In this document: positions 7,217 to 63,780 of the stretch, in pieces | How the letters are laid out: each line of letters starts with the position of its first letter | How positions within the stretch are numbered: position 1 is the stretch's first letter | Assembly (NCBI GenBank): GCA_902776375.1 | Contig: CACYPV010000006.1 | Span: 893 to 64,892, forward strand | Direction of reading: 5' to 3' | Origin: an uncultured Ruminococcus sp. | GTDB taxonomy: Bacteria > Bacillota > Clostridia > Oscillospirales > Acutalibacteraceae | DNA length: 64,000 nt | Notes under the pieces: generated by a model | The model's input: the letters and a program-made list of their open reading frames with translations, nothing else | The model's database searches: none | What the model was told of the DNA's origin: nothing | Translations under genes and position numbers: made by a program

Positions 7217-7431
7217 AGTGAATGATTAATAATGAATAGTGAATAGTGAATGGCGGGCTCTGCCCGCACCCGATTTATATTGGCGCGGCACGATTCGATA
7301 ACGCGGCACATGCGCTTCGCGCAGGAAGCTTTTTCGCTCAGCACGCATTATTACAAATCCGGAGCGAAGCGACCATTCACTATGCACTATGCACCATTCA
7401 CTATACACTAATATAAAACGGAGTATTAAAC
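7217..7431. repeat. Composite palindromic intergenic element (word arrays flanking a TIR-like core)
   Basis: GTGAATAG-type words (7226-7254) are mirrored by their complement (7375-7412). They flank a core at 7255-7374 that begins GGGCTCTGCCCGCACCCGATT and ends AATCCGGAGCGAAGCGACC. The same ends recur at 28344-28516 and 30284-30361. Confidence 0.8.
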
Positions 7432-8484: not shown

Positions 8485-10695
8485 ATGCGCTGTTATAATT
8501 GTATGAAAGAGCTGCCTACGGATAGCGTCCCGTTTTGTCCGTTCTGCGGCAAGAACCCAAATGAACAGAATCCCCCGCACCGCCTTGCCGCCGGAACAGT
8601 CCTGCATAACAGGTACCTTGTCGGCGCAACGCTGGGCGAAGGCGGCTTCGGCATAACCTACGTGGGCTTTGACCAAACGCTTTATATCAAGGTGGCGGTC
8701 AAGGAGTATTACCCCTCGGGCATCGCCACGCGCTTCAACACCATTTCAAACGACGTAAGAGTAAGCGCGGAGAGGCAACAAGAGAGTTTTGAAAAAGGAA
8801 AAGACAGCTTTTTGAAAGAAGCCCGCAGCGTGGCGCAGTTTTCAAACGAAACCGGCATTGTAGACGTGCGCGACTTCTTCACCGAAAACAACACGGCGTA
8901 TATCGTCATGGAGTTTTTGGACGGCATTGATTTAAACAAGCACATACATAATAACGGTATTATGGAAGCAAAGCAGACCTTTGACATGATGCTTCCGCTC
9001 ATGCGCACGCTCGAAAAAATGCACAGGCAAAACGTCATCCACCGCGACATCTCGCCCGACAATATCATGCTGCTCAAAAACGGCACGCTAAAGCTTATGG
9101 ATTTCGGCTCGGCGCGGCAGTATTCGCGTGATGAATCAAGGTCGCTTTCCGTAGTGCTAAAGCCCGGCTTCGCTCCGTTCGAGCAGTACAGCCGCAAGGG
9201 AAAGCAGGGTCCGTGGACGGACGTGTACGCCCTGTGCGCCACTATCTACGCGTGCATAACAGGTAAAGCGCCCTCAGATTCACTCGACCGCTCGGTTACC
9301 GACGATTTAAAAAAGCCCTCGGAGCTCGGCATTTCGATACCCGAAAACCTCGAAAAAGCGCTGATGAAAGGGCTCGCCGTTCATCGTGAGAACCGATTCC
9401 GGAACATGAGCGAGCTTATTGCGGCAATTGAGAAAAAACCTGTACCGACTGAAAAGAAAAAAACCGAGGCAAAAGAAAACCTAACGATCGTCACAGACGA
9501 TAAGGAAAGTGACGAAAGCAAAACCATTGCTGCGGACGATGCGGAAAACAACAAAAACAAAACCATTGACGCAAATGAATTAAAGAAAGACGAACAGAAA
9601 ACAGTTTCGGCAGACGCACCAGTAATGGCAAAAAAGCCTGTTGATTGGAAACAAGCTAAAGAAACCGATAAAACAAATGAGAAAAATAAGCGCGGCAAAA
9701 AGGTGCCGTTAATAATCAGCTCAATCGCATTAGTGCTGGTATTGGCAATTGTGGGCGTTTTTGTTGTTAAGCCAATTTTTGATAAACAATCAGAATCATC
9801 ATCGTCGGGATCGACAACTTATGGCGATGAACAAAAGCAAATACGGGAGGGCTTGTCAAAGCAAACGATTTCAGCGGGGTCTTATCACACTGTCAGCTTA
9901 AAATCGGATGGCACTGTCGTTGCTACAAAAATACCCGATGATTCTATGCATGATGTATATAATAAGGGTCAATGCAATGTCGGCGATTGGAAGGATATCG
10001 TCGCGATAAGCGCGGGTGAATACCTCTCTGTTGGCTTAAAATCGGACAGCACTGTGGTTGCCGTGGGATATAATGATTCAGGTCAACTCCACGTCAGAGA
10101 CTGGAAAGATATTGTCGCAGTAAGCGCGGGAAATAATTTCACTGTCGGCCTGAAATCGGACGGCACTGTTGTTGCTGCGGGATTAGATTCGAATGATCAA
10201 TACGACATTGGCGGTTGGAATGATATCGTAGCGGTCAGTGCAGGAAGGCGCCACACTGTCGGCTTAAAATCGGACGGCACGGTAGTTGCCGCGGGAGATA
10301 ATGAATACGGTCAATGTGATGTCAGCGAATGGGAAAATATCATTGCAGTAAGCGCGGGATATGACCACACCGTCGGCTTGAAAGCTGACGGCACGGTAGT
10401 AGCCGTAGGTTATTATTACTCCGGTCAATGCGACGTCGGCGGTTGGAAGGATATCGTAGCGATAAGCGCGGGAGAATATCACTCTGTCGGCTTGAAATCG
10501 GACAGGACAGTTGTTGCTGCGGGAAATAATTATCACGGAGAATGTTACGTCAGTGATTGGAAGGATATAGTCTCTGTAAGCGCGGGAGCGAGTCACACTG
10601 TCGGCTTGAAATCAGATGGCACTGTTGTTGCTGTGGGAGATAATTATGACGGTCAATGCGACGTCGGCGACTGGACAAACATAAAAACAAACTAA
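8485..10695 (+). CDS. Ser/Thr protein kinase with N-terminal zinc ribbon, single TM helix and extracellular 7-blade RCC1-like propeller
   Basis: CxxC..CxxC at the N-terminus; Hanks kinase motifs (VAVKEY, HRDISPDNIML, DFGSAR, APFE); a K/E-rich linker; a TM helix (VPLIISSIALVLVLAIVGVFVV); seven (V/I)SAGxxHTVGLKSDGTVVAxG repeats. Confidence 0.9.
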   Translation: MRCYNCMKELPTDSVPFCPFCGKNPNEQNPPHRLAAGTVLHNRYLVGATLGEGGFGITYVGFDQTLYIKVAVKEYYPSGIATRFNTISNDVRVSAERQQESFEKGKDSFLKEARSVAQFSNETGIVDVRDFFTENNTAYIVMEFLDGIDLNKHIHNNGIMEAKQTFDMMLPLMRTLEKMHRQNVIHRDISPDNIMLLKNGTLKLMDFGSARQYSRDESRSLSVVLKPGFAPFEQYSRKGKQGPWTDVYALCATIYACITGKAPSDSLDRSVTDDLKKPSELGISIPENLEKALMKGLAVHRENRFRNMSELIAAIEKKPVPTEKKKTEAKENLTIVTDDKESDESKTIAADDAENNKNKTIDANELKKDEQKTVSADAPVMAKKPVDWKQAKETDKTNEKNKRGKKVPLIISSIALVLVLAIVGVFVVKPIFDKQSESSSSGSTTYGDEQKQIREGLSKQTISAGSYHTVSLKSDGTVVATKIPDDSMHDVYNKGQCNVGDWKDIVAISAGEYLSVGLKSDSTVVAVGYNDSGQLHVRDWKDIVAVSAGNNFTVGLKSDGTVVAAGLDSNDQYDIGGWNDIVAVSAGRRHTVGLKSDGTVVAAGDNEYGQCDVSEWENIIAVSAGYDHTVGLKADGTVVAVGYYYSGQCDVGGWKDIVAISAGEYHSVGLKSDRTVVAAGNNYHGECYVSDWKDIVSVSAGASHTVGLKSDGTVVAVGDNYDGQCDVGDWTNIKTN
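9868..10692 (+). repeat. Seven tandem ~114-nt coding repeats (RCC1-like blades) inside the kinase gene
   Basis: Recurrent GTAAGCGCGGGA..CACACTGTCGGCTTGAAATCGGACGGCACTGT segments. The first blade is 46 aa and blades 2-6 are 38 aa. Confidence 0.75.
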
Positions 10696-14007: not shown

Positions 14008-14910
14008 ATGTCCATGACAAACACAACAAAAAAGAACATTTTTAAAAGCGCTCTCGCCGCGCTTCTCGCGGCAACTATGATCGCAGGCGCAATGGCAGGC
14101 TGCGGCTCCGGCTCAACAAGCTCAAAGGCTGAGGTAAGCGCCGCAAACGAAACACAGGTCGTCACCCAGGTCGTAAACGGCGTTTACGTCGACGAAAACG
14201 GCCAGCCGATCACCGACGCCAACGGCGACTTCATCCCCGCGTCCGAGGCGGCAACAACTGCCGGCGACAAAACGTCCAAGGCTAAGGACGACAAGCAGAG
14301 CAGCGCCGACAACAAACAAAACTCCAAGTCGGGCGATACAAGCAAGACCCAGAGCAGCGCTTCATCCAAAACCAACAACACGCAGAATTCCGGCGCTCAG
14401 CAGTCGGCAGGCTCCGGCAACTCCGGCAGCGGCGAAAGAACCAAGACCCCGTCCGGCGCAAAGAACAGCGCCACCAAAAAGTCGACCAAGGCAGACGACT
14501 CCGCCAAAGAACTCACTATCGGCGGCAAGAGCTACAAGGTCGGCGACAAAGTCACCTGCACCTATTTCCTGACTGTTCCCCAGCCCATGCTCAACTTCCA
14601 GGGCAGAGTAGAGTATGACAACACCATGCTCAAAAAGACCAACGCCTATCTCGTAGCGCCCGCAAGCTACAGCGCGATGCTCAACGCCACGCTCGACAAC
14701 CGCGTAGTATTCAACGGCTCCGACCTCAGCGGCTACGACTTCACCGAGCCCGGCTACGAATTCCTCGTTGTAGAGTACGAGGTGCTCAAAACAGGCACGA
14801 CCGAGCCCGCCATCACCTTCGAGGTCATCACCGATACCAACGACAAGGCATACGCCGGCGCCGACGGCGTCCTCTCGGGCGGCGCAAAGGTCATGAGCGT
14901 TTATTCGTGA
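14008..14910 (+). CDS. Lipoprotein with low-complexity S/K/Q/N linker and C-terminal cohesin-like domain (scaffoldin-like)
   Basis: Lipobox AMAGC. The C-terminal ~140 aa (KVGDKVTCTYFLTVPQPMLNFQGRVEYDNTMLKK..) follow the cohesin pattern (vGdxvxvxvxl...gxqxxlxYDxxxL). Confidence 0.6.
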   Translation: MSMTNTTKKNIFKSALAALLAATMIAGAMAGCGSGSTSSKAEVSAANETQVVTQVVNGVYVDENGQPITDANGDFIPASEAATTAGDKTSKAKDDKQSSADNKQNSKSGDTSKTQSSASSKTNNTQNSGAQQSAGSGNSGSGERTKTPSGAKNSATKKSTKADDSAKELTIGGKSYKVGDKVTCTYFLTVPQPMLNFQGRVEYDNTMLKKTNAYLVAPASYSAMLNATLDNRVVFNGSDLSGYDFTEPGYEFLVVEYEVLKTGTTEPAITFEVITDTNDKAYAGADGVLSGGAKVMSVYS

Positions 14911-14917
14911 TAGAGCC

Positions 14918-14975
14918 TGTCATCCTGAGCGGTGCCGAAGGCGATTTCACGAAGTGAAATAGTCGAAGGAGCCCC
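14918..14975 (+). repeat. Two-hairpin repeat module 'B' (TGTCATCCTGAGCGG..GTCGAAGGAGCCCCC), solitary copy in a 3' UTR
   Basis: Shares conserved ends with copies at 26270-26330, 26347-26408, 28406-28467 and 63613-63673. Internal hairpins are GCC-GAA-GGC and ATTTCAC-GAA-GTGAAAT. Confidence 0.75.
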
Positions 14976-15025
14976 CTTCTTCGCGAAGCAAACCATAACC
15001 ATTAATTGAAAATCGATAATTTAAA

Positions 15026-26161: not shown

Positions 26162-26466
26162 AATGACCTCTCATTAGTGGTTAGTGGCTAGTGGTTAGTG
26201 GTTAGTCAGTAATAAGTTATAAGTAAGAAGTTATAAGTAAATTTAGATTAAGCCTTTGTTCATCGCCGAGGGGGATCCTTCGACTATTTCACTACGTGAA
26301 ATTGCCCTTCGGGCACCGCTCAGGATGACAATTTCTGCCTCTCATTGGGGTATCTCTCGACTATTTCCTGTCGGAAATTTTTGCTTCGCAAAACCGCTCG
26401 AGATGACATATATAGGCAACGTTTCTGCTAAATCAACTTTCAACTTTCAATTTTCAACTTTCAATT
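26162..26466. repeat. Composite repeat element inside the acc/fab operon (word arrays plus two tandem module-B copies)
   Basis: GTTAGTGG and AAGTTATAAGTA words at 26172-26240, module B at 26270-26330 and 26347-26408, and TTCAACTTT words at 26432-26466. Confidence 0.85.
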
Positions 26467-28292: not shown

Positions 28293-28552
28293 GGTTTGCT
28301 CCTTTGGAGAATTGAAAATGGAGAATGGAAAATGGAAAATTTCGGGTCGCTTCGCTCCGGATTTGTATTGTGTTTGGTTGCAAAACAACGTTTGTGCGCT
28401 GCATTGGGGGATCTCTCGACTATTTCCTGTCGGAAATTTTTGCTTCGCAAAACCGCTCGAGATGACAACTATTGGAAACCGCGCTAATACAAATCAGGTG
28501 TGGGCGGAGCCCGCCCTCAATTGTCAATTGTTCATTGTCAATTGTTAATTGT
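28293..28552. repeat. Composite repeat element (TIR-like core with a nested module-B copy) between fabZ and accB
   Basis: Words at 28303-28340, core at 28344-28516 in inverted orientation with module B at 28406-28467 inside it, and CAATTGTC words at 28518-28552. Confidence 0.85.
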
Positions 28553-30229: not shown

Positions 30230-30397
30230 GTGATCACTCCATTTCAGTTGACAATTGACGATTGATAATTGACAATTAAGATTGGGCTCTGCCCACACCC
30301 GATTAATATTCGTGCCGTGCGACAAAAACATGCGGCATCATAAATCGGAGCGAAGCGACCCTAAATTGTCCACTGTCCATTATAAATTGTCCATTTA
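30230..30397. repeat. Composite repeat element (GACAATTG words plus a 78-nt TIR-like core) between fabF and fabG
   Basis: Words at 30246-30280 and 30362-30397. Core at 30284-30361: GGGCTCTGCCCACACCCGATT..AATCGGAGCGAAGCGACCC. Confidence 0.85.
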
Positions 30398-42189: not shown

Positions 42190-42526
42190 CAAAAGATTAG
42201 ATGCCAGAGGCTAGATGCCAGAGGCTAGATGCTAGAGGCTGGAAGCTAGAGCAGAAACGTTGCAAAAAAGAAGGCTCCCCTGCGTAAGGGGAGCCTTTCG
42301 TATAGCTAAACGTTTGTGCTTACATCAGTGTTGCGTAGTGACAGCCCTTGCGGCTGTCATTTCGCCGCAGGGCGGCGAATACTCTCATCCGACCAATTCG
42401 CAAAGCGAATTGCCCACCTTCCCCACAAGGGGGAAGGCTTTAACATAGCTAAACGCTTCCGCTAATTCATCTAGCATCTAGCTTCTAGCCTCTAGCTTCT
42501 AGCCTCTAGCTTCTAGCCTCTAGCTT
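42190..42526. repeat. Large composite palindromic element: CTAG-word arms enclosing five short stem-loops
   Basis: The left arm (42196-42253) is complementary to the right arm (42466-42526). Hairpins at 42271-42297, 42339-42359, 42361-42379, 42394-42412 and 42417-42437. Confidence 0.85.
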
Positions 42527-43369
42527 CTAGCCGCCGACCCTACGGCATTTGACGAAGAATCGGTCGAAGTCGCCGCTTGCGGAGGGGGTGCAGGTGAACA
42601 TGGTGAAAAGATCCTCGCCCTCCTTGATGAACGCCGCGGCGGATTCGTTCGGCTTGAAGGTGTTCTTTTCGCTGACCTCGTAGGTCAGAGTTTCCCAAAA
42701 GTTCCTGACGGTTATTCTGTCGCCGATATTCAGGCTGCGCAGGTTGTCGAAGAATATCCTGCCCACATAGCCCGTGTGACCGGCTATGACGGCGTTGGTG
42801 TCGGCGCCGCCTATGGGGAGCGAGGTGAAGGTCATGTGCGCCGCGCCGTAGCTCATGTTTGAGTCGCTGGTGCCGAGATAGATAGGAAGCAGCATGTCGA
42901 TAGAGGGCGCGGAGACGTAGCCGTAAACGCCGTCGTAGATGCCGTAGTCGCGCAGGTCGAGCGCGGACTTGCCGTTGAAGTCGCCGCTGCCGTTGAACTT
43001 GCTGCCCTGAGTCTTTTTAAGATCCTCGTTGTAGGCTATGCTGTCGCGTCTTAGCCTGTCGAGATCGGCTTTGAACAGAACGGGCGCGCTGCTTGTGCGC
43101 TTGCCGCTCTCTTTGTCTACGGCGTAGCCTTCGGAGTCGACCTCGCCGGCTTTGAGCGCGTCGGCGTAGGTCTTTTGGGTTATGCCCGTGCCGGCGTCGC
43201 TGTCCTCGGATATCACATATGTGAGCGTTTTTTCATAGTCCTCGGTTTTGTGGCGCGCCTTCTGCTTTCCTATGTAATTGGAAATCGGCGGGAAAAGCAG
43301 TAAAGCCAAGCCCGCGAGCAGCAGGATCGAGGCGATGATGATAAGGATCAGCTTAGTGCGTTTTTTCAT
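42527..43369 (-). CDS. Sortase (class C-like or pilus-anchoring; no C-terminal TM helix, no DPF lid)
   Basis: N-terminal TM helix with His (VIAGHTG), Cys (TMFTCTP) and Arg (VKCRRV) catalytic motifs. Its TAG stop lies within the first CTAG word of the adjacent repeat. Confidence 0.85.
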   Translation of the reverse strand: MKKRTKLILIIIASILLLAGLALLLFPPISNYIGKQKARHKTEDYEKTLTYVISEDSDAGTGITQKTYADALKAGEVDSEGYAVDKESGKRTSSAPVLFKADLDRLRRDSIAYNEDLKKTQGSKFNGSGDFNGKSALDLRDYGIYDGVYGYVSAPSIDMLLPIYLGTSDSNMSYGAAHMTFTSLPIGGADTNAVIAGHTGYVGRIFFDNLRSLNIGDRITVRNFWETLTYEVSEKNTFKPNESAAAFIKEGEDLFTMFTCTPSASGDFDRFFVKCRRVGG

Positions 43370-44282: not shown

Positions 44283-44390
44283 GTGTTTGATTCCTTTTTT
44301 AGATTCTAGAAGCTAGAGGCTAGAAGCTAGATATAATATATCCTACATTCTTCTAGCATCTAGCTTCTGGCATCTAGCCTCTAAATGCTG
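44283..44390. repeat. CTAG-word hairpin element (arms only, no core) between the pilin and sortase genes
   Basis: CTAGAAGCTAGAGGCTAGAAGCTAG (about 44296-44325) is complementary to CTAGCATCTAGCTTCTGGCATCTAGCCTCTA (about 44352-44385). Confidence 0.75.
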
Positions 44391-60562: not shown

Positions 60563-60600
60563 TTAATGCGTAATGCGTAATGCGTAATTGATTTAGTAGG
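60563..60600 (+). repeat. GCGTAAT heptamer array directly after the stop codon
   Basis: TTAATGCGTAATGCGTAATGCGTAATTGA places TAA in all three forward frames. The same word occurs at 54483-54497 and around 27853. Confidence 0.65.
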
Positions 60601-62870: not shown

Positions 62871-63431
62871 ATGGGGATAATTGAACTTATACTGCTATCT
62901 GTCGGGCTTGCGATGGACGCGTTCGCGGTGTCGATCTGCAAGGGGCTGTCGGTCAGAGAGCTCAAGCCTAAGCACGGTTTGATCGCGGGCGCGTACTTCG
63001 GCGGCTTTCAGGCGCTTATGCCGCTTATCGGCTGGCTGCTGGGCAGGCAGTTTGAGGAGCTGATAAAGAGCGTCGACCATTGGATAGCGTTCGGTCTGCT
63101 TGTGCTGATAGGCGCAAACATGATACGCGAGTCGTTCGGCGGCGAGGACGAGCAGAACGCCTCGTTCTCGTTCAAGGCTATGCTGCCGCTGGCGATAGCC
63201 ACGAGCATAGACGCGCTTGCGGTGGGCGTGACCTTCGCGTTTTTGGAGGTAAACATCGTTCTGGCGATCACGCTGATAGGCGTTATCACCTTTGCGATAT
63301 CGGCGGCAGGCGTGAAAATAGGCAATGTTTTCGGCACGAGGTTCAAGTCAAAGGCGGAATTCGCCGGCGGCGTTATTCTTATTTTGCTGGGAATAAAAAT
63401 ACTGGTCGAGCATTTATTCTTCGGAGGATAG
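62871..63431 (+). CDS. mntP: Manganese efflux pump MntP
   Basis: [10 protein letters not shown] and the repeated [10 protein letters not shown] motif; 186 aa with six TM helices. Confidence 0.9.
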
Positions 63432-63780
63432 AAGCTAGATGCTAGAAGCTAGAGGCTAGATGCTAGATAGTTGAGAGTTGAGAGTTGAGAGTGGAGAGTT
63501 GTTTCAAATCTACAATTAACAATCTACAATCTACAGTGAAGGGTCGCTTCGCTCCGATTTGTGTTGCGTTTGGTTTAATGGAAACGCTTTGCGGTTAGCC
63601 GTTGCCTCCTGCTGTCATTCTGAGCGGTGCCGGAGGCAAAATCGCGTTCAGCGATTTAGTCGAAGGATCCCCCTCGGCAATGAACCAAACGCTTCTGCTA
63701 ATACATCTAGCATCTAGCATCTAGCATCTAGCATCTTCACTTTCAACTTTCAATTTTCAATTTTCAACTAAAAAAACGGA
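63432..63780. repeat. Largest composite repeat element: several word families, a half TIR-like core, a long-range stem and module B
   Basis: CTAG words at 63432-63468, GTTGAGAG words at 63469-63500, CAATCTACA words at 63507-63535, GGGTCGCTTCGCTCCGATT at 63541-63559, GCGTTTGGTT/AACCAAACGC stem (63566-63575 / 63683-63692), module B at 63613-63673, CATCTAG words at 63705-63737 and TTCAACTTT words at 63738-63768. Confidence 0.85.

What the first reader, a model, noticed from the sequence alone, without database searches (positions are those of the whole stretch)
26270..26408. About 60-nt two-hairpin module with fully compensatory stem changes, always in the same orientation relative to transcription (candidate structured RNA)
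There are five copies: 14918-14975 (+), 63613-63673 (+), and 26270-26330, 26347-26408 and 28406-28467 on the minus strand. All share the ends TGTCAT(C/T)(C/T)(T/C)GAGCGG and GTCGA(A/G)(G/A)GA..CCCC, but the two internal hairpins differ in sequence while keeping their pairing. Hairpin 1 is GCC-GAA-GGC, GCCC-GAA-GGGC, GCC-GGA-GGC or TTTTGC-GAA-GCAAAA. Hairpin 2 is ATTTCAC-GAA-GTGAAAT, ATTTCAC-GTA-GTGAAAT, ATTTCC-GACA-GGAAAT or AAATCGC-GTTCA-GCGATTT. A possible closing stem also co-varies (ATCC/GGAT, ATCTC/GAGAT, ATTC/GGAT with a G-U pair). In all five cases the TGTCAT.. strand is the one transcribed with the flanking genes. The copies at 26347-26408 and 28406-28467 differ at one position only. 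This pattern suggests selection on an RNA (or single-stranded DNA) structure rather than on sequence.
Basis: seen in the sequence. Interest (0 to 1): 0.65.

Follow-up and report, generated by a model that had tools for sequence, protein, structure and literature searches.

The report
Hairpin DNA repeat tied to Ssn nucleases
The five 60-base modules are real and their fold is conserved, but they are most likely copies of a widespread small DNA repeat that folds as single-stranded DNA and is paired with a tiny GIY-YIG nuclease, not a new functional RNA.

Summary
A covariance model finds exactly five copies in the window (69-87 bits; next best 11 bits). The three helices covary in 49 distinct relatives: 91.8% of cells paired, 12 of 16 pairs changed on both sides.

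The RNA reading does not hold. Outside the window the element lies in either orientation to genes. It also sits in frame inside genes (rsmG, phage terminase), and paired copies mostly have their TGTC ends facing outward.

Its layout is an unpaired TGTC tag, a stem starting A-T/T-A, a C just after the stem and a C-rich tail. This matches the described "CGTC-tagged REP" repeats (Neisseria dRS3/NTS, Rickettsia RPE-4/6). In Neisseria these are bound as single-stranded DNA hairpins, not RNA or duplex DNA, and cut by the 94-aa GIY-YIG nuclease SsnA.

I tested that link. Six of 120 element-containing loci hold a ~100-aa single-domain GIY-YIG gene with element copies beside it. All 14 contigs fetched through six such proteins carry (C/T)GTCAT-tagged hairpins next to the gene.

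The window's copies are a rumen subfamily with two extra hairpins in place of the loop. The published Ssn-motif search pattern misses them. No ssn gene lies in the window, so the link for this genome is inferred.

The parts
26270..26330 (-). Copy 3, the best match to the subfamily model. Read on the minus strand: TGTC tag, closing stem, tandem G.A, two inner hairpins, C, CCCC tail.
   Evidence: sequence; 87.2 bits, E 6.6e-22.
26347..26408 (-). Copy 4, head-to-tail with copy 3 across a 16-nt spacer. It has A instead of C right after the closing stem.
   Evidence: (69.2 bits).
28406..28467 (-). Copy 5, between accB and fabZ. It is the twin of copy 4, differing at one base.
   Evidence: (71.9 bits).
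14918..14976 (+). Copy 1, starting 7 nt after the stop codon of ORF 14008-14910.
   Evidence: (75.6 bits). One search shows the sharp repeat edges in metagenome depth.
63613..63673 (+). Copy 2, downstream of mntP (62871-63431). Its closing stem has a U.G (T.G) pair.
   Evidence: (74.5 bits).
26327..26330 (-). Unpaired 5' tag TGTC of copy 3. It corresponds to the CGTC/TGTC tag of tagged REPs and to the bases upstream of the palindrome that govern SsnA cleavage in Neisseria.
   Evidence: Invariant in all copies. TGTC in 163 of 176 relaxed matches. Literature: PMC3733652, PMC11893778.
26319..26326 (-). 5' arm of the lower stem of copy 3: ATCCT, then GA (tandem G.A), then G.
   Evidence: Covariation (helix 1, 99.7% paired, 4 of 6 pairs with double changes).
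26275..26282 (-). 3' arm of the lower stem of copy 3: C, then GA, then AGGAT.
26286..26314 (-). Variable insert of copy 3, sitting where short family members have a 4-nt loop. Hairpin 1 is GCCC-GAA-GGGC; hairpin 2 is ATTTCAC-GTA-GTGAAAT.
   Evidence: Short 31-nt forms such as TGTCATTCCGAGCG-GAGT-CGAGGAATCCCC appear.
26270..26274 (-). C immediately after the stem, plus the C-rich tail of copy 3.
   Evidence: Consensus downstream of 147 copies is (C/T)C(C/T)C(T)(A). The equivalent C is the base most critical for SsnA binding in PMC11893778.

Best explanation
The element is a member of the CGTC/TGTC-tagged REP class, called Ssn-related motifs in the 2025 literature. It is a dispersed DNA repeat, and it acts as single-stranded DNA.

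When the TGTCAT strand is single-stranded it folds into a hairpin. The sequence-specific parts are the lower part and its unpaired flanks: the TGTC tag, a stem of five Watson-Crick pairs, two sheared G.A pairs and a G-C pair, then a C and a C-rich tail. A cognate small single-domain GIY-YIG nuclease of the Ssn type would bind this part and cut a few bases upstream of the tag.

The upper part of the hairpin is free to vary. In the window's rumen subfamily it has been replaced by two small hairpins, giving a three-way junction.

The nuclease gene bracketed by two inverted copies looks like an insertion-sequence-like parent unit. On that reading, solo copies and outward-facing dimers are gene-less derivatives that have spread into intergenic regions, operons, open reading frames (in frame) and phages.

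- Shown here: the fold and its covariation, the strand asymmetry, the lack of a fixed orientation to transcription, the dimers, the in-frame copies, and the physical link to GIY-YIG genes in relatives.
- Taken from the literature: ssDNA-only, strand-specific binding and cleavage, and tolerance of changes and extensions in the loop (Neisseria SsnA/NTS).
- Inferred: that the window's subfamily has its own Ssn partner, and that the nuclease drives the spread.
For: - Layout. The element has a TGTC tag, a stem whose first two pairs are A-T and T-A, a short tail, and a preference for sites between convergent or same-direction genes (convergent 29, divergent 6). In-frame copies lie inside genes: rsmG in L099, and a phage terminase and other large phage ORFs. 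All of this is as described for CGTC REPs (PMC3733652).
- Dimers. Of adjacent pairs within 500 nt, 61 have tags outside, 2 have tags inside and 19 are tandem. Nine rumen doublets share one fixed spacing.
- Nuclease link, forward. Six of 120 loci chosen only for the element hold a ~100-aa single-domain GIY-YIG ORF (PF01541, E 1e-14 to 1e-17). Five are bracketed by two oppositely oriented copies within about 120 nt. The sixth, L028, has a detected copy on one side only and a frameshifted gene.
- Nuclease link, reciprocal. Contigs fetched through six GIY-YIG proteins gave 14 loci from Chloroflexota, Bacteroidota, Atribacterota and unnamed metagenome contigs. All carry (C/T)GTCAT-tagged hairpins beside the gene. 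L273 is a 507-bp unit with near-identical inverted copies at 22-73 and 477-528 around the gene at 141-470.
- Strand specificity without transcription polarity. Single mismatches in the inner stem are G.T 30 versus A.C 13. GAA loops outnumber TTC loops 37 to 8. Yet orientation to genes is mixed.
- Variable upper part. Inner length runs from 4 to 55 nt, with one hairpin or two. This agrees with the experimental finding that the NTS loop is dispensable and extendable (PMC11893778).
- Conserved contact bases. The bases conserved here are those that matter for SsnA: the bases upstream of the palindrome for cleavage, and the C right after it for binding.
Against: - No GIY-YIG gene lies in the 64-kb window or in about 200 kb of rumen loci carrying the two-hairpin subfamily (tblastn E<0.01). 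The partner nuclease for this subfamily is therefore not shown.
- The published degenerate Ssn-motif sequence matches neither the window copies nor the short forms.
- Membership of the flanking proteins in CDD family cd10448, and their homology to Neisseria SsnA, could not be tested directly.
- All five window copies are sense to their genes and are transcribed as part of operon mRNA. A secondary RNA-level effect is not excluded.
- That the nuclease mobilises the repeats is unproven, even in the literature.
Confidence: 0.7

Rival explanations
1. A cis-acting structured RNA in mRNAs. The three-way junction would be transcribed with the upstream gene and act as an intercistronic or 3' stabiliser, a processing site or a terminator-like element, as some REPs do in E. 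coli.
For: - All five window copies are sense, intergenic, and inside or after operons such as fabF-accB-[el]-fabZ-accC-[el][el]-accD-accA.
- Metatranscriptome contigs run through them.
- The helices covary, and the closing stem includes a U.G pair.
- The given strand folds somewhat better than its complement.
Against: - Orientation is mixed in relatives, including the same subfamily: L120 is antisense inside znuA-znuC, and between same-direction genes the subfamily splits 4 to 4.
- Phage copies are mostly antisense and inside ORFs.
- Outward-facing dimers and copies bracketing a nuclease gene have no RNA rationale.
- No Rfam match.
- Five of five sense copies has p of about 0.06 under random orientation.
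- In the one studied system the partner protein does not bind RNA (PMC11893778).
Confidence: 0.12
2. A REP/REPIN mobilised by a RAYT or IS200/IS605-type HUH tyrosine transposase acting on ssDNA hairpins.
For: Conserved hairpin with unpaired flanks, inverted doublets, no target-site duplication, and a 3'-of-gene location. All are REP-like traits (PMC3733652, PMC3116915).
Against: - There is no GTAG tag; the tag is TGTC.
- tblastn with IS608 TnpA and E. coli RAYT found nothing in 1.7 Mb of element-bearing loci plus the window. The queries were written from memory, so this is a weak test.
- The gene that is repeatedly bracketed by the element is a GIY-YIG nuclease, not a Y1 transposase.
- CGTC-tagged REPs were reported to lack RAYT association (PMC3733652).
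Confidence: 0.06
3. A conventional MITE: a deletion derivative of a DDE-transposase insertion sequence with terminal inverted repeats TGTCATYCTGAGCGG.
For: The ~147-nt rumen doublets start with TGTCAT and end with ATGACA, in the style of a TG..CA terminus.
Against: - No target-site duplication flanks nine doublets.
- Solo copies are functional-looking units with their own conserved fold.
- Compensatory changes within one arm are not needed for a duplex-DNA terminal repeat.
- ORF clustering found no DDE transposase recurrently next to copies.
Confidence: 0.04
4. A new small ribozyme or independent non-coding RNA gene.
For: A three-way junction with a conserved core and variable stems, present in many phyla.
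Against: - No match to a hammerhead, twister, pistol or hatchet model, even at E<=10.
- No promoter or terminator signature was examined that would support an independent gene.
- Copies lie inside ORFs in both orientations.
- The junction is absent in most family members, which have one hairpin or only a 4-nt loop.
Confidence: 0.02

Closest known systems
Neisseria NTS/dRS3 repeats and other Ssn-related motifs (SRM), with the SsnA GIY-YIG ssDNA nuclease (Chenal et al. 2025, PMC11893778)
   Same: - An oriented hairpin repeat with a conserved (C/T)GTC just upstream of a palindrome that starts AT.
- A conserved C right after the palindrome.
- A variable loop.
- Hundreds of dispersed copies.
- Copies flanking a ~95-110-aa single-domain GIY-YIG gene in an insertion-sequence-like arrangement.
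   Different: - The stem sequence differs (ATCCT-GA-G versus ATTCCCGCG) and contains tandem G.A mismatches.
- The loop is replaced by 20-50 nt of extra hairpin, or by two hairpins in the window.
- It does not match the published degenerate SRM pattern.
- Hosts here are Acidobacteriota, Chloroflexota, Verrucomicrobiota, rumen Clostridia-like bacteria and phages, rather than mainly Pseudomonadati.
- No nuclease gene has been identified for the window's genome.
CGTC-tagged REP superfamily, including Rickettsia RPE-4/RPE-6 (Di Nocera et al. 2013, PMC3733652)
   Same: - The tag; TGTC is a variant listed by the authors.
- A-T and T-A as the first two stem pairs.
- A short unpaired tail.
- Dimers with tags outside predominate, with 20-100-bp spacers.
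- Sites between same-direction and convergent genes.
- In-frame copies inside genes.
   Different: - Described families have 8-9-bp stems and 4-5-nt loops. The window copies have a 35-38-nt two-hairpin insert.
- The tail is CCC(C) rather than CCA.
- Tandem pairs are more frequent here (19 of 82).
- Firmicutes/Clostridia and Acidobacteriota were not among the five listed phyla for CGTC repeats.
REP/REPIN elements with RAYT transposases (Bertels and Rainey 2011, PMC3116915)
   Same: Short extragenic palindromes, inverted doublets as the likely replicative unit, single-strand recognition, and structure kept by compensatory change.
   Different: A GTAG tag and a Y1 (HUH) transposase in REPINs, against a TGTC tag and a GIY-YIG partner here.
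Integron attC sites
   Same: They function as folded single-stranded DNA. The foot of the structure is conserved, the terminal structure is variable and sometimes branched, and recognition is strand-specific.
   Different: There is no GTTRRRY core, no cassette array and no integrase context. Copies sit in housekeeping operons and ORFs.

Membership tests
CGTC-tagged REP superfamily (PMC3733652) | Unpaired terminal CGTC tag (TGTC or CCTC accepted) at one end | tested here: met
   TGTC in all five window copies. In relaxed matches TGTC occurs 163 times and CGTC 5 times out of 176.
CGTC-tagged REP superfamily (PMC3733652) | Stem whose first and second positions are complementary A-T residues | tested here: met
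   A-U in 47 of 48 and U-A in 48 of 48 at the first two pairs.
CGTC-tagged REP superfamily (PMC3733652) | Stem of 8-9 bp and loop of 4-5 nt | tested here: not met
   Window copies have 5 Watson-Crick pairs, 2 G.A pairs and 1 G-C pair, then a 35-38-nt two-hairpin insert. Short relatives do fit, for example ATTCCGAGCG-GAGT-CGAGGAAT.
CGTC-tagged REP superfamily (PMC3733652) | Short unpaired tail at the untagged end (consensus CCA) | tested here: inconclusive
   A tail is present but reads CCC(C) or CYCTA.
CGTC-tagged REP superfamily (PMC3733652) | Dimers mostly with tags outside; tags-inside dimers rare | tested here: met
   61 tags-outside, 2 tags-inside and 19 tandem in related loci. The only pair in the window is tandem.
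Ssn-related motif (SRM) / Ssn system (PMC11893778) | Matches the degenerate sequence HGTCWYN(0-2)YYVSBRHN(0-5)WNVSBRGN(0-2)RNCYNB | tested here: not met
   A regex of this pattern hits NTS but none of the window copies, short forms or L273 copies, and nothing else in the window.
Ssn-related motif (SRM) / Ssn system (PMC11893778) | Copies flank a single-domain ~94-aa GIY-YIG (cd10448) gene | tested here: met
   Met for the wider family: six of 120 loci and 14 of 14 contigs fetched via six GIY-YIG proteins. Assignment to cd10448 itself was not testable. Not shown for the window's genome, which has no GIY-YIG gene in 64 kb.
Ssn-related motif (SRM) / Ssn system (PMC11893778) | Bound and cut only as ssDNA of one strand, a few nt upstream of the hairpin | not testable with these tools
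   Indirect support only: strand-asymmetric mismatches (G.T 30, A.C 13) and loops (GAA 37, TTC 8) without a transcription polarity.
REP/RAYT (GTAG-tagged REP, REPIN) | GTAG tag and association with a Y1 transposase | tested here: not met
   There is no GTAG. tblastn found no IS200/RAYT-like hit in 1.7 Mb (queries written from memory, so a weak test).
Rfam RNA families | Score at or above a family's gathering threshold | tested here: not met
   No hit on the element in the window or in 20 loci. At E<=10 only chance-level hits appear.
DDE-type MITE | Terminal inverted repeats plus a target-site duplication | tested here: not met
   The doublets have inverted ends, but no direct repeat flanks nine of them.

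The most novel reading that the evidence does not exclude
The TGTCAT...GAGCG...CGA..GGAT hairpins and their ~100-aa GIY-YIG partner may form a true mobile-element family. A single-domain GIY-YIG nuclease would drive its spread through ssDNA.

The hairpin loop would act as a free cargo slot. That would explain the window's three-way junction.

Gene-less copies would colonise operons, essential genes (in frame) and phage genomes across ten or more phyla. They may also seed the heptamer tandem arrays seen beside them.
Probability: 0.3. Interest if true: 0.7.

Novelty: new variant of a known kind. Interest (0 to 1): 0.45.

Why it matters
It turns a candidate "new structured RNA" into a testable DNA-level system.

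It extends the recently described Ssn/SRM pairing to hairpin variants that the published search pattern misses. These include variants with tandem G.A pairs and long or branched loop inserts. It also extends the pairing to new hosts: Acidobacteriota, Chloroflexota, Verrucomicrobiota, rumen Clostridia-like bacteria and soil phages.

The natural loop inserts fit the experimental finding that the loop is dispensable. They would offer many ready-made nuclease/site pairs for ssDNA tools.

For annotation, the finding explains recurrent short peptide motifs such as CHPERS...AESKDPY and ...SARDD inside otherwise conserved proteins, and spurious small ORFs. It also warns against calling these repeats RNA motifs from covariation alone.

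Tried and rejected
- Rfam: gathering and E<=10 scans found nothing relevant.
- Hand comparison with the hammerhead, hairpin-ribozyme, k-turn, sarcin-ricin and tetraloop-receptor consensus sequences: no fit. This rests on my own knowledge and was not computed.
- Literature searches by DNA string and by encoded peptide returned nothing useful.
- Elhai et al. 2008 on small dispersed repeats in Nostoc could not be read. I did not use it as evidence.
- RNA end mapping was not possible. Only assembled contigs of metatranscriptomes are available, and these break at repeat edges.
- A clean filled-versus-empty site comparison was not obtained. Related strains keep the 14918 copy or show whole-segment replacement (28360-28484 replaced by 35 nt). 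The phage terminase site is a multiply remodelled hot spot.
- My first gene-orientation count, based on longest ORFs, was unreliable in high-GC loci. I replaced it with a codon-model caller and spot-checked that with Pfam.
- In the ORF clustering I first dismissed the six-locus cluster that later proved to be the GIY-YIG gene.
- A second protein search aimed at rumen homologs returned only unnamed or non-rumen proteins. Its query was a family-like sequence written from memory.
- The environment of P0204 could not be determined.
- A generic scan for other tagged hairpins in the window gave only a chance-level hit.

Full report
**What is there.** The five modules are at the reported coordinates and strands. 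Read 5' to 3' on their own strand they share these parts:
- TGTCAT(C/T)(C/T)(C/T)GAGCGG-T at the 5' end;
- a 3-6-bp hairpin, mostly with a GNA loop;
- a 6-7-bp hairpin;
- AGTCGA(A/G)(G/A)GA(T/G)(C/A)CCCC at the 3' end.

The fold is a three-way junction. Its closing helix is five Watson-Crick pairs (A-U, U-A, then three covarying pairs), two G.A/A.G oppositions and a G-C pair. A covariance model built from 16 subfamily sequences finds exactly these five in the window (69-87 bits). The next best hit scores 11 bits. Nothing in Rfam 15 matches.

**Context in the window.** The organism is a rumen bacterium. Bovine and sheep gut metagenomes hold up to 98% of the sampled words.
- Three copies lie inside a fatty-acid operon, fabF-accB-[copy]-fabZ-accC-[copy][copy]-accD-accA.
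- One copy starts 7 nt after the stop of an ORF with no Pfam match.
- One copy follows mntP.

All five are sense to the flanking genes. Metatranscriptome contigs cover the accC-accD copies. In metagenomes the depth over the element is 20-40 times that of its flanks, with sharp edges. It is therefore a highly dispersed repeat.

**The wider family.** Most are Acidobacteriota. Others are Rhodothermales, Gemmatimonadales, Chthoniobacterales, Eremiobacterota, Patescibacteria, Omnitrophota, Bifidobacterium, Gammaproteobacteria and rumen Clostridiales MAGs. The same pattern hit 36 viral contigs.

Most copies have one long inner hairpin. Inner length ranges from 4 to 55 nt. The conserved parts are TGTCATCCTGAGCGG(AG) and (CGN)AGTCGAAGGA(C/T)C(C/T)C. 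Nothing is conserved 5' of the tag.

The closing helix covaries cleanly in 147 copies: T-A 130 and C-G 17 with no mismatch at one pair, and C-G 132, T-A 11 and 4 non-pairs at the next.

A metagenome scan for the two-hairpin form returned 36 loci, nearly all from one project. On 49 distinct sequences aligned to the model:
- 91.8% of cells pair;
- 12 of 16 pairs change on both sides;
- no shuffle out of 500 reaches the observed values;
- slid registers give 22-55% pairing.

**Why it is not primarily an RNA.** I called genes with a codon-usage model and checked examples with Pfam.
- Between same-direction genes the wider family lies sense 46 times and antisense 30 times. It prefers convergent gaps (29) over divergent ones (6).
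- In the two-hairpin subfamily, solo copies between same-direction genes split 4 to 4.
- L120 has an antisense copy between znuA and znuC.
- In a group of related soil phage contigs the element lies antisense inside long ORFs and is read through in frame, for example ...PG-SLDSGLQNAQTSARDD-N....
- In a set of homologous phage terminases, a site that is empty in three relatives carries heptamer arrays plus reverse-complement copies in the others. These include a minimal 27-31-nt form.
- In L099 a sense copy sits in frame inside rsmG, reading CHPERS...AESKDPY.

The fold is nevertheless strand-specific. Single mismatches in the inner stem are G.T 30 against A.C 13, and GAA loops outnumber TTC loops 37 to 8. 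A strand-specific fold with no transcription polarity points to single-stranded DNA, or to the intermediate of a mobile element.

**Dimers.** Adjacent copies within 500 nt have their tags outside 61 times, inside 2 times and in tandem 19 times. Nine rumen loci carry a ~147-nt doublet of the form TGTCAT...CCCC, spacer, GGGG...ATGACA. The spacing is fixed and there is no target-site duplication.

**Match to known classes.** Di Nocera et al. (PMC3733652) define CGTC-tagged REPs by these features:
- an unpaired CGTC tag, with TGTC as an accepted variant;
- a stem starting with complementary A-T residues;
- a short tail;
- predominance of tags-outside dimers with 20-100-bp spacers;
- location between same-direction and convergent ORFs;
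- in-frame intragenic copies.

Neisseria dRS3 and Rickettsia RPE-4/-6 are members, and no transposase was known for the class.

Chenal et al. (PMC11893778) showed what the oriented form of dRS3 does. That form, NTS, is CGTCATTCCCGCGMAVGCGGGAATCYRG.
- SsnA, a 94-aa single-domain GIY-YIG protein, binds it only as ssDNA of one strand. It does not bind duplex DNA or RNA.
- SsnA cuts a few nt upstream.
- The three bases upstream of the palindrome control cleavage.
- The C just after the palindrome is the most important base for binding.
- The loop is dispensable and can be extended.
- ssn genes are typically flanked by such motifs.

The window element has the same tag, the same A-T start, the same C and a freely variable upper part.

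**Test of the nuclease link.**
- Forward: among the 120 loci selected only for the element, six contain a ~100-aa ORF with a single GIY-YIG domain (PF01541, E 1e-14 to 1e-17). Five are bracketed by two oppositely oriented copies within about 120 nt. The sixth, L028, has a detected copy on one side only and a frameshifted gene.
- Reciprocal: two protein searches, one of them seeded with a family-like sequence written from memory, each returned 8000 or more single-domain relatives. Those with names are called "GIY-YIG nuclease family protein".
- I fetched contigs for six of these proteins, giving 14 loci from Chloroflexota, Bacteroidota, Atribacterota and unnamed metagenome contigs. Every locus has (C/T)GTCAT-tagged hairpins next to the gene.
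- L273 is a compact 507-bp unit with near-identical inverted copies of this very element around the gene.
- The hairpins flanking P0204 (TGTCATCCTGAGGGCAGCGCCCGAAGGATC) share the ATCCT/AGGAT stem and the tandem G.A with the window copies.

**Limits.**
- The window and about 200 kb of rumen loci contain no GIY-YIG gene. The partner for the two-hairpin subfamily is inferred.
- The published degenerate motif does not match these variants.
- cd10448 membership could not be tested.
- Whether Ssn proteins spread the repeats is unknown.
- Copy 26347-26408 differs from its twin only by an A at the binding-critical C position, which may mark an inactive copy.
- An incidental effect on mRNA in this operon cannot be excluded.

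**Verdict.** The best explanation is a variant of the CGTC/TGTC-tagged REP / Ssn-related hairpin repeat that acts as single-stranded DNA (confidence about 0.7). The novelty lies in the branched loop insert, the G.A-containing stem that escapes the published motif, and the host range.

Noticed in passing
window 7217-7251, 7378-7410, 26174-26240, 26433-26464, 28305-28341, 28517-28552, 30248-30277, 42198-42251, 42470-42531, 44306-44383, 60564-60588, 63429-63535, 63704-63769: About 18 tandem arrays of degenerate heptamers (4-9 units each) fill the intergenic regions. They often occur as complementary pairs bracketing a set of hairpins. Similar arrays sit next to the element in a phage terminase hot spot and next to the ssn unit in L273. 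They are enriched within 200 nt of elements: 26 of 106 against 8.4% of the sequence in genome loci, and 10 of 18 against 3% in the window. They have very high depth in rumen metagenomes. Their origin is unexplained.
   Followed up: partly
window 7361-7375 (+), 28344-28358 (-), 30347-30361 (+), 63541-63555 (-): A second small repeat, GGAGCGAAGCGACCC: a GCGAAGC mini-hairpin flanked by purines. There are four copies against 0.23 expected by chance. It occurs in both orientations relative to genes and lies next to heptamer arrays.
   Followed up: partly
window 26351 (copy 26347-26408) versus 28410 (copy 28406-28467): The single difference between the twin copies is A instead of C at the base right after the closing stem. 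In Neisseria NTS this is the base most critical for SsnA binding.
   Followed up: no
L157-L204 (phage terminase genes), between the motifs SAVYWH and RIVTYREF: An insertion hot spot that is empty in L199-L201. Elsewhere it is filled with 20-70 codons of heptamer arrays plus reverse-complement element copies, all read through in frame.
   Followed up: partly
L099 292-1020 (rsmG) and 2266-2324 (start of parB): A sense copy of the element is translated in frame inside 16S rRNA methyltransferase RsmG (CHPERS...AESKDPY). A second copy overlaps the annotated start of parB.
   Followed up: partly
window 42260-42450: A 190-nt stretch between two complementary heptamer arrays holds at least five unrelated GC-rich hairpins. 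One has a TGTCAT head: TGTCATTTCGCCGC-AGG-GCGGCGAAT at 42355-42380.
   Followed up: no
window 28360-28484: In one related rumen strain (run X8) this 125-nt segment, which includes copy 5, is replaced by an unrelated 35-nt sequence. The flanks are conserved.
   Followed up: no
window 9967-10675: A 114/228-nt tandem repeat (about 6 units, about 70% matches) lies inside the 736-aa ORF 8485-10695. It probably encodes a repeated protein domain.
   Followed up: no
window around 24000: GC skew changes sign where plus-strand genes (1-24 kb) meet minus-strand genes (24-56 kb). The element's strand follows the genes on both sides.
   Followed up: no
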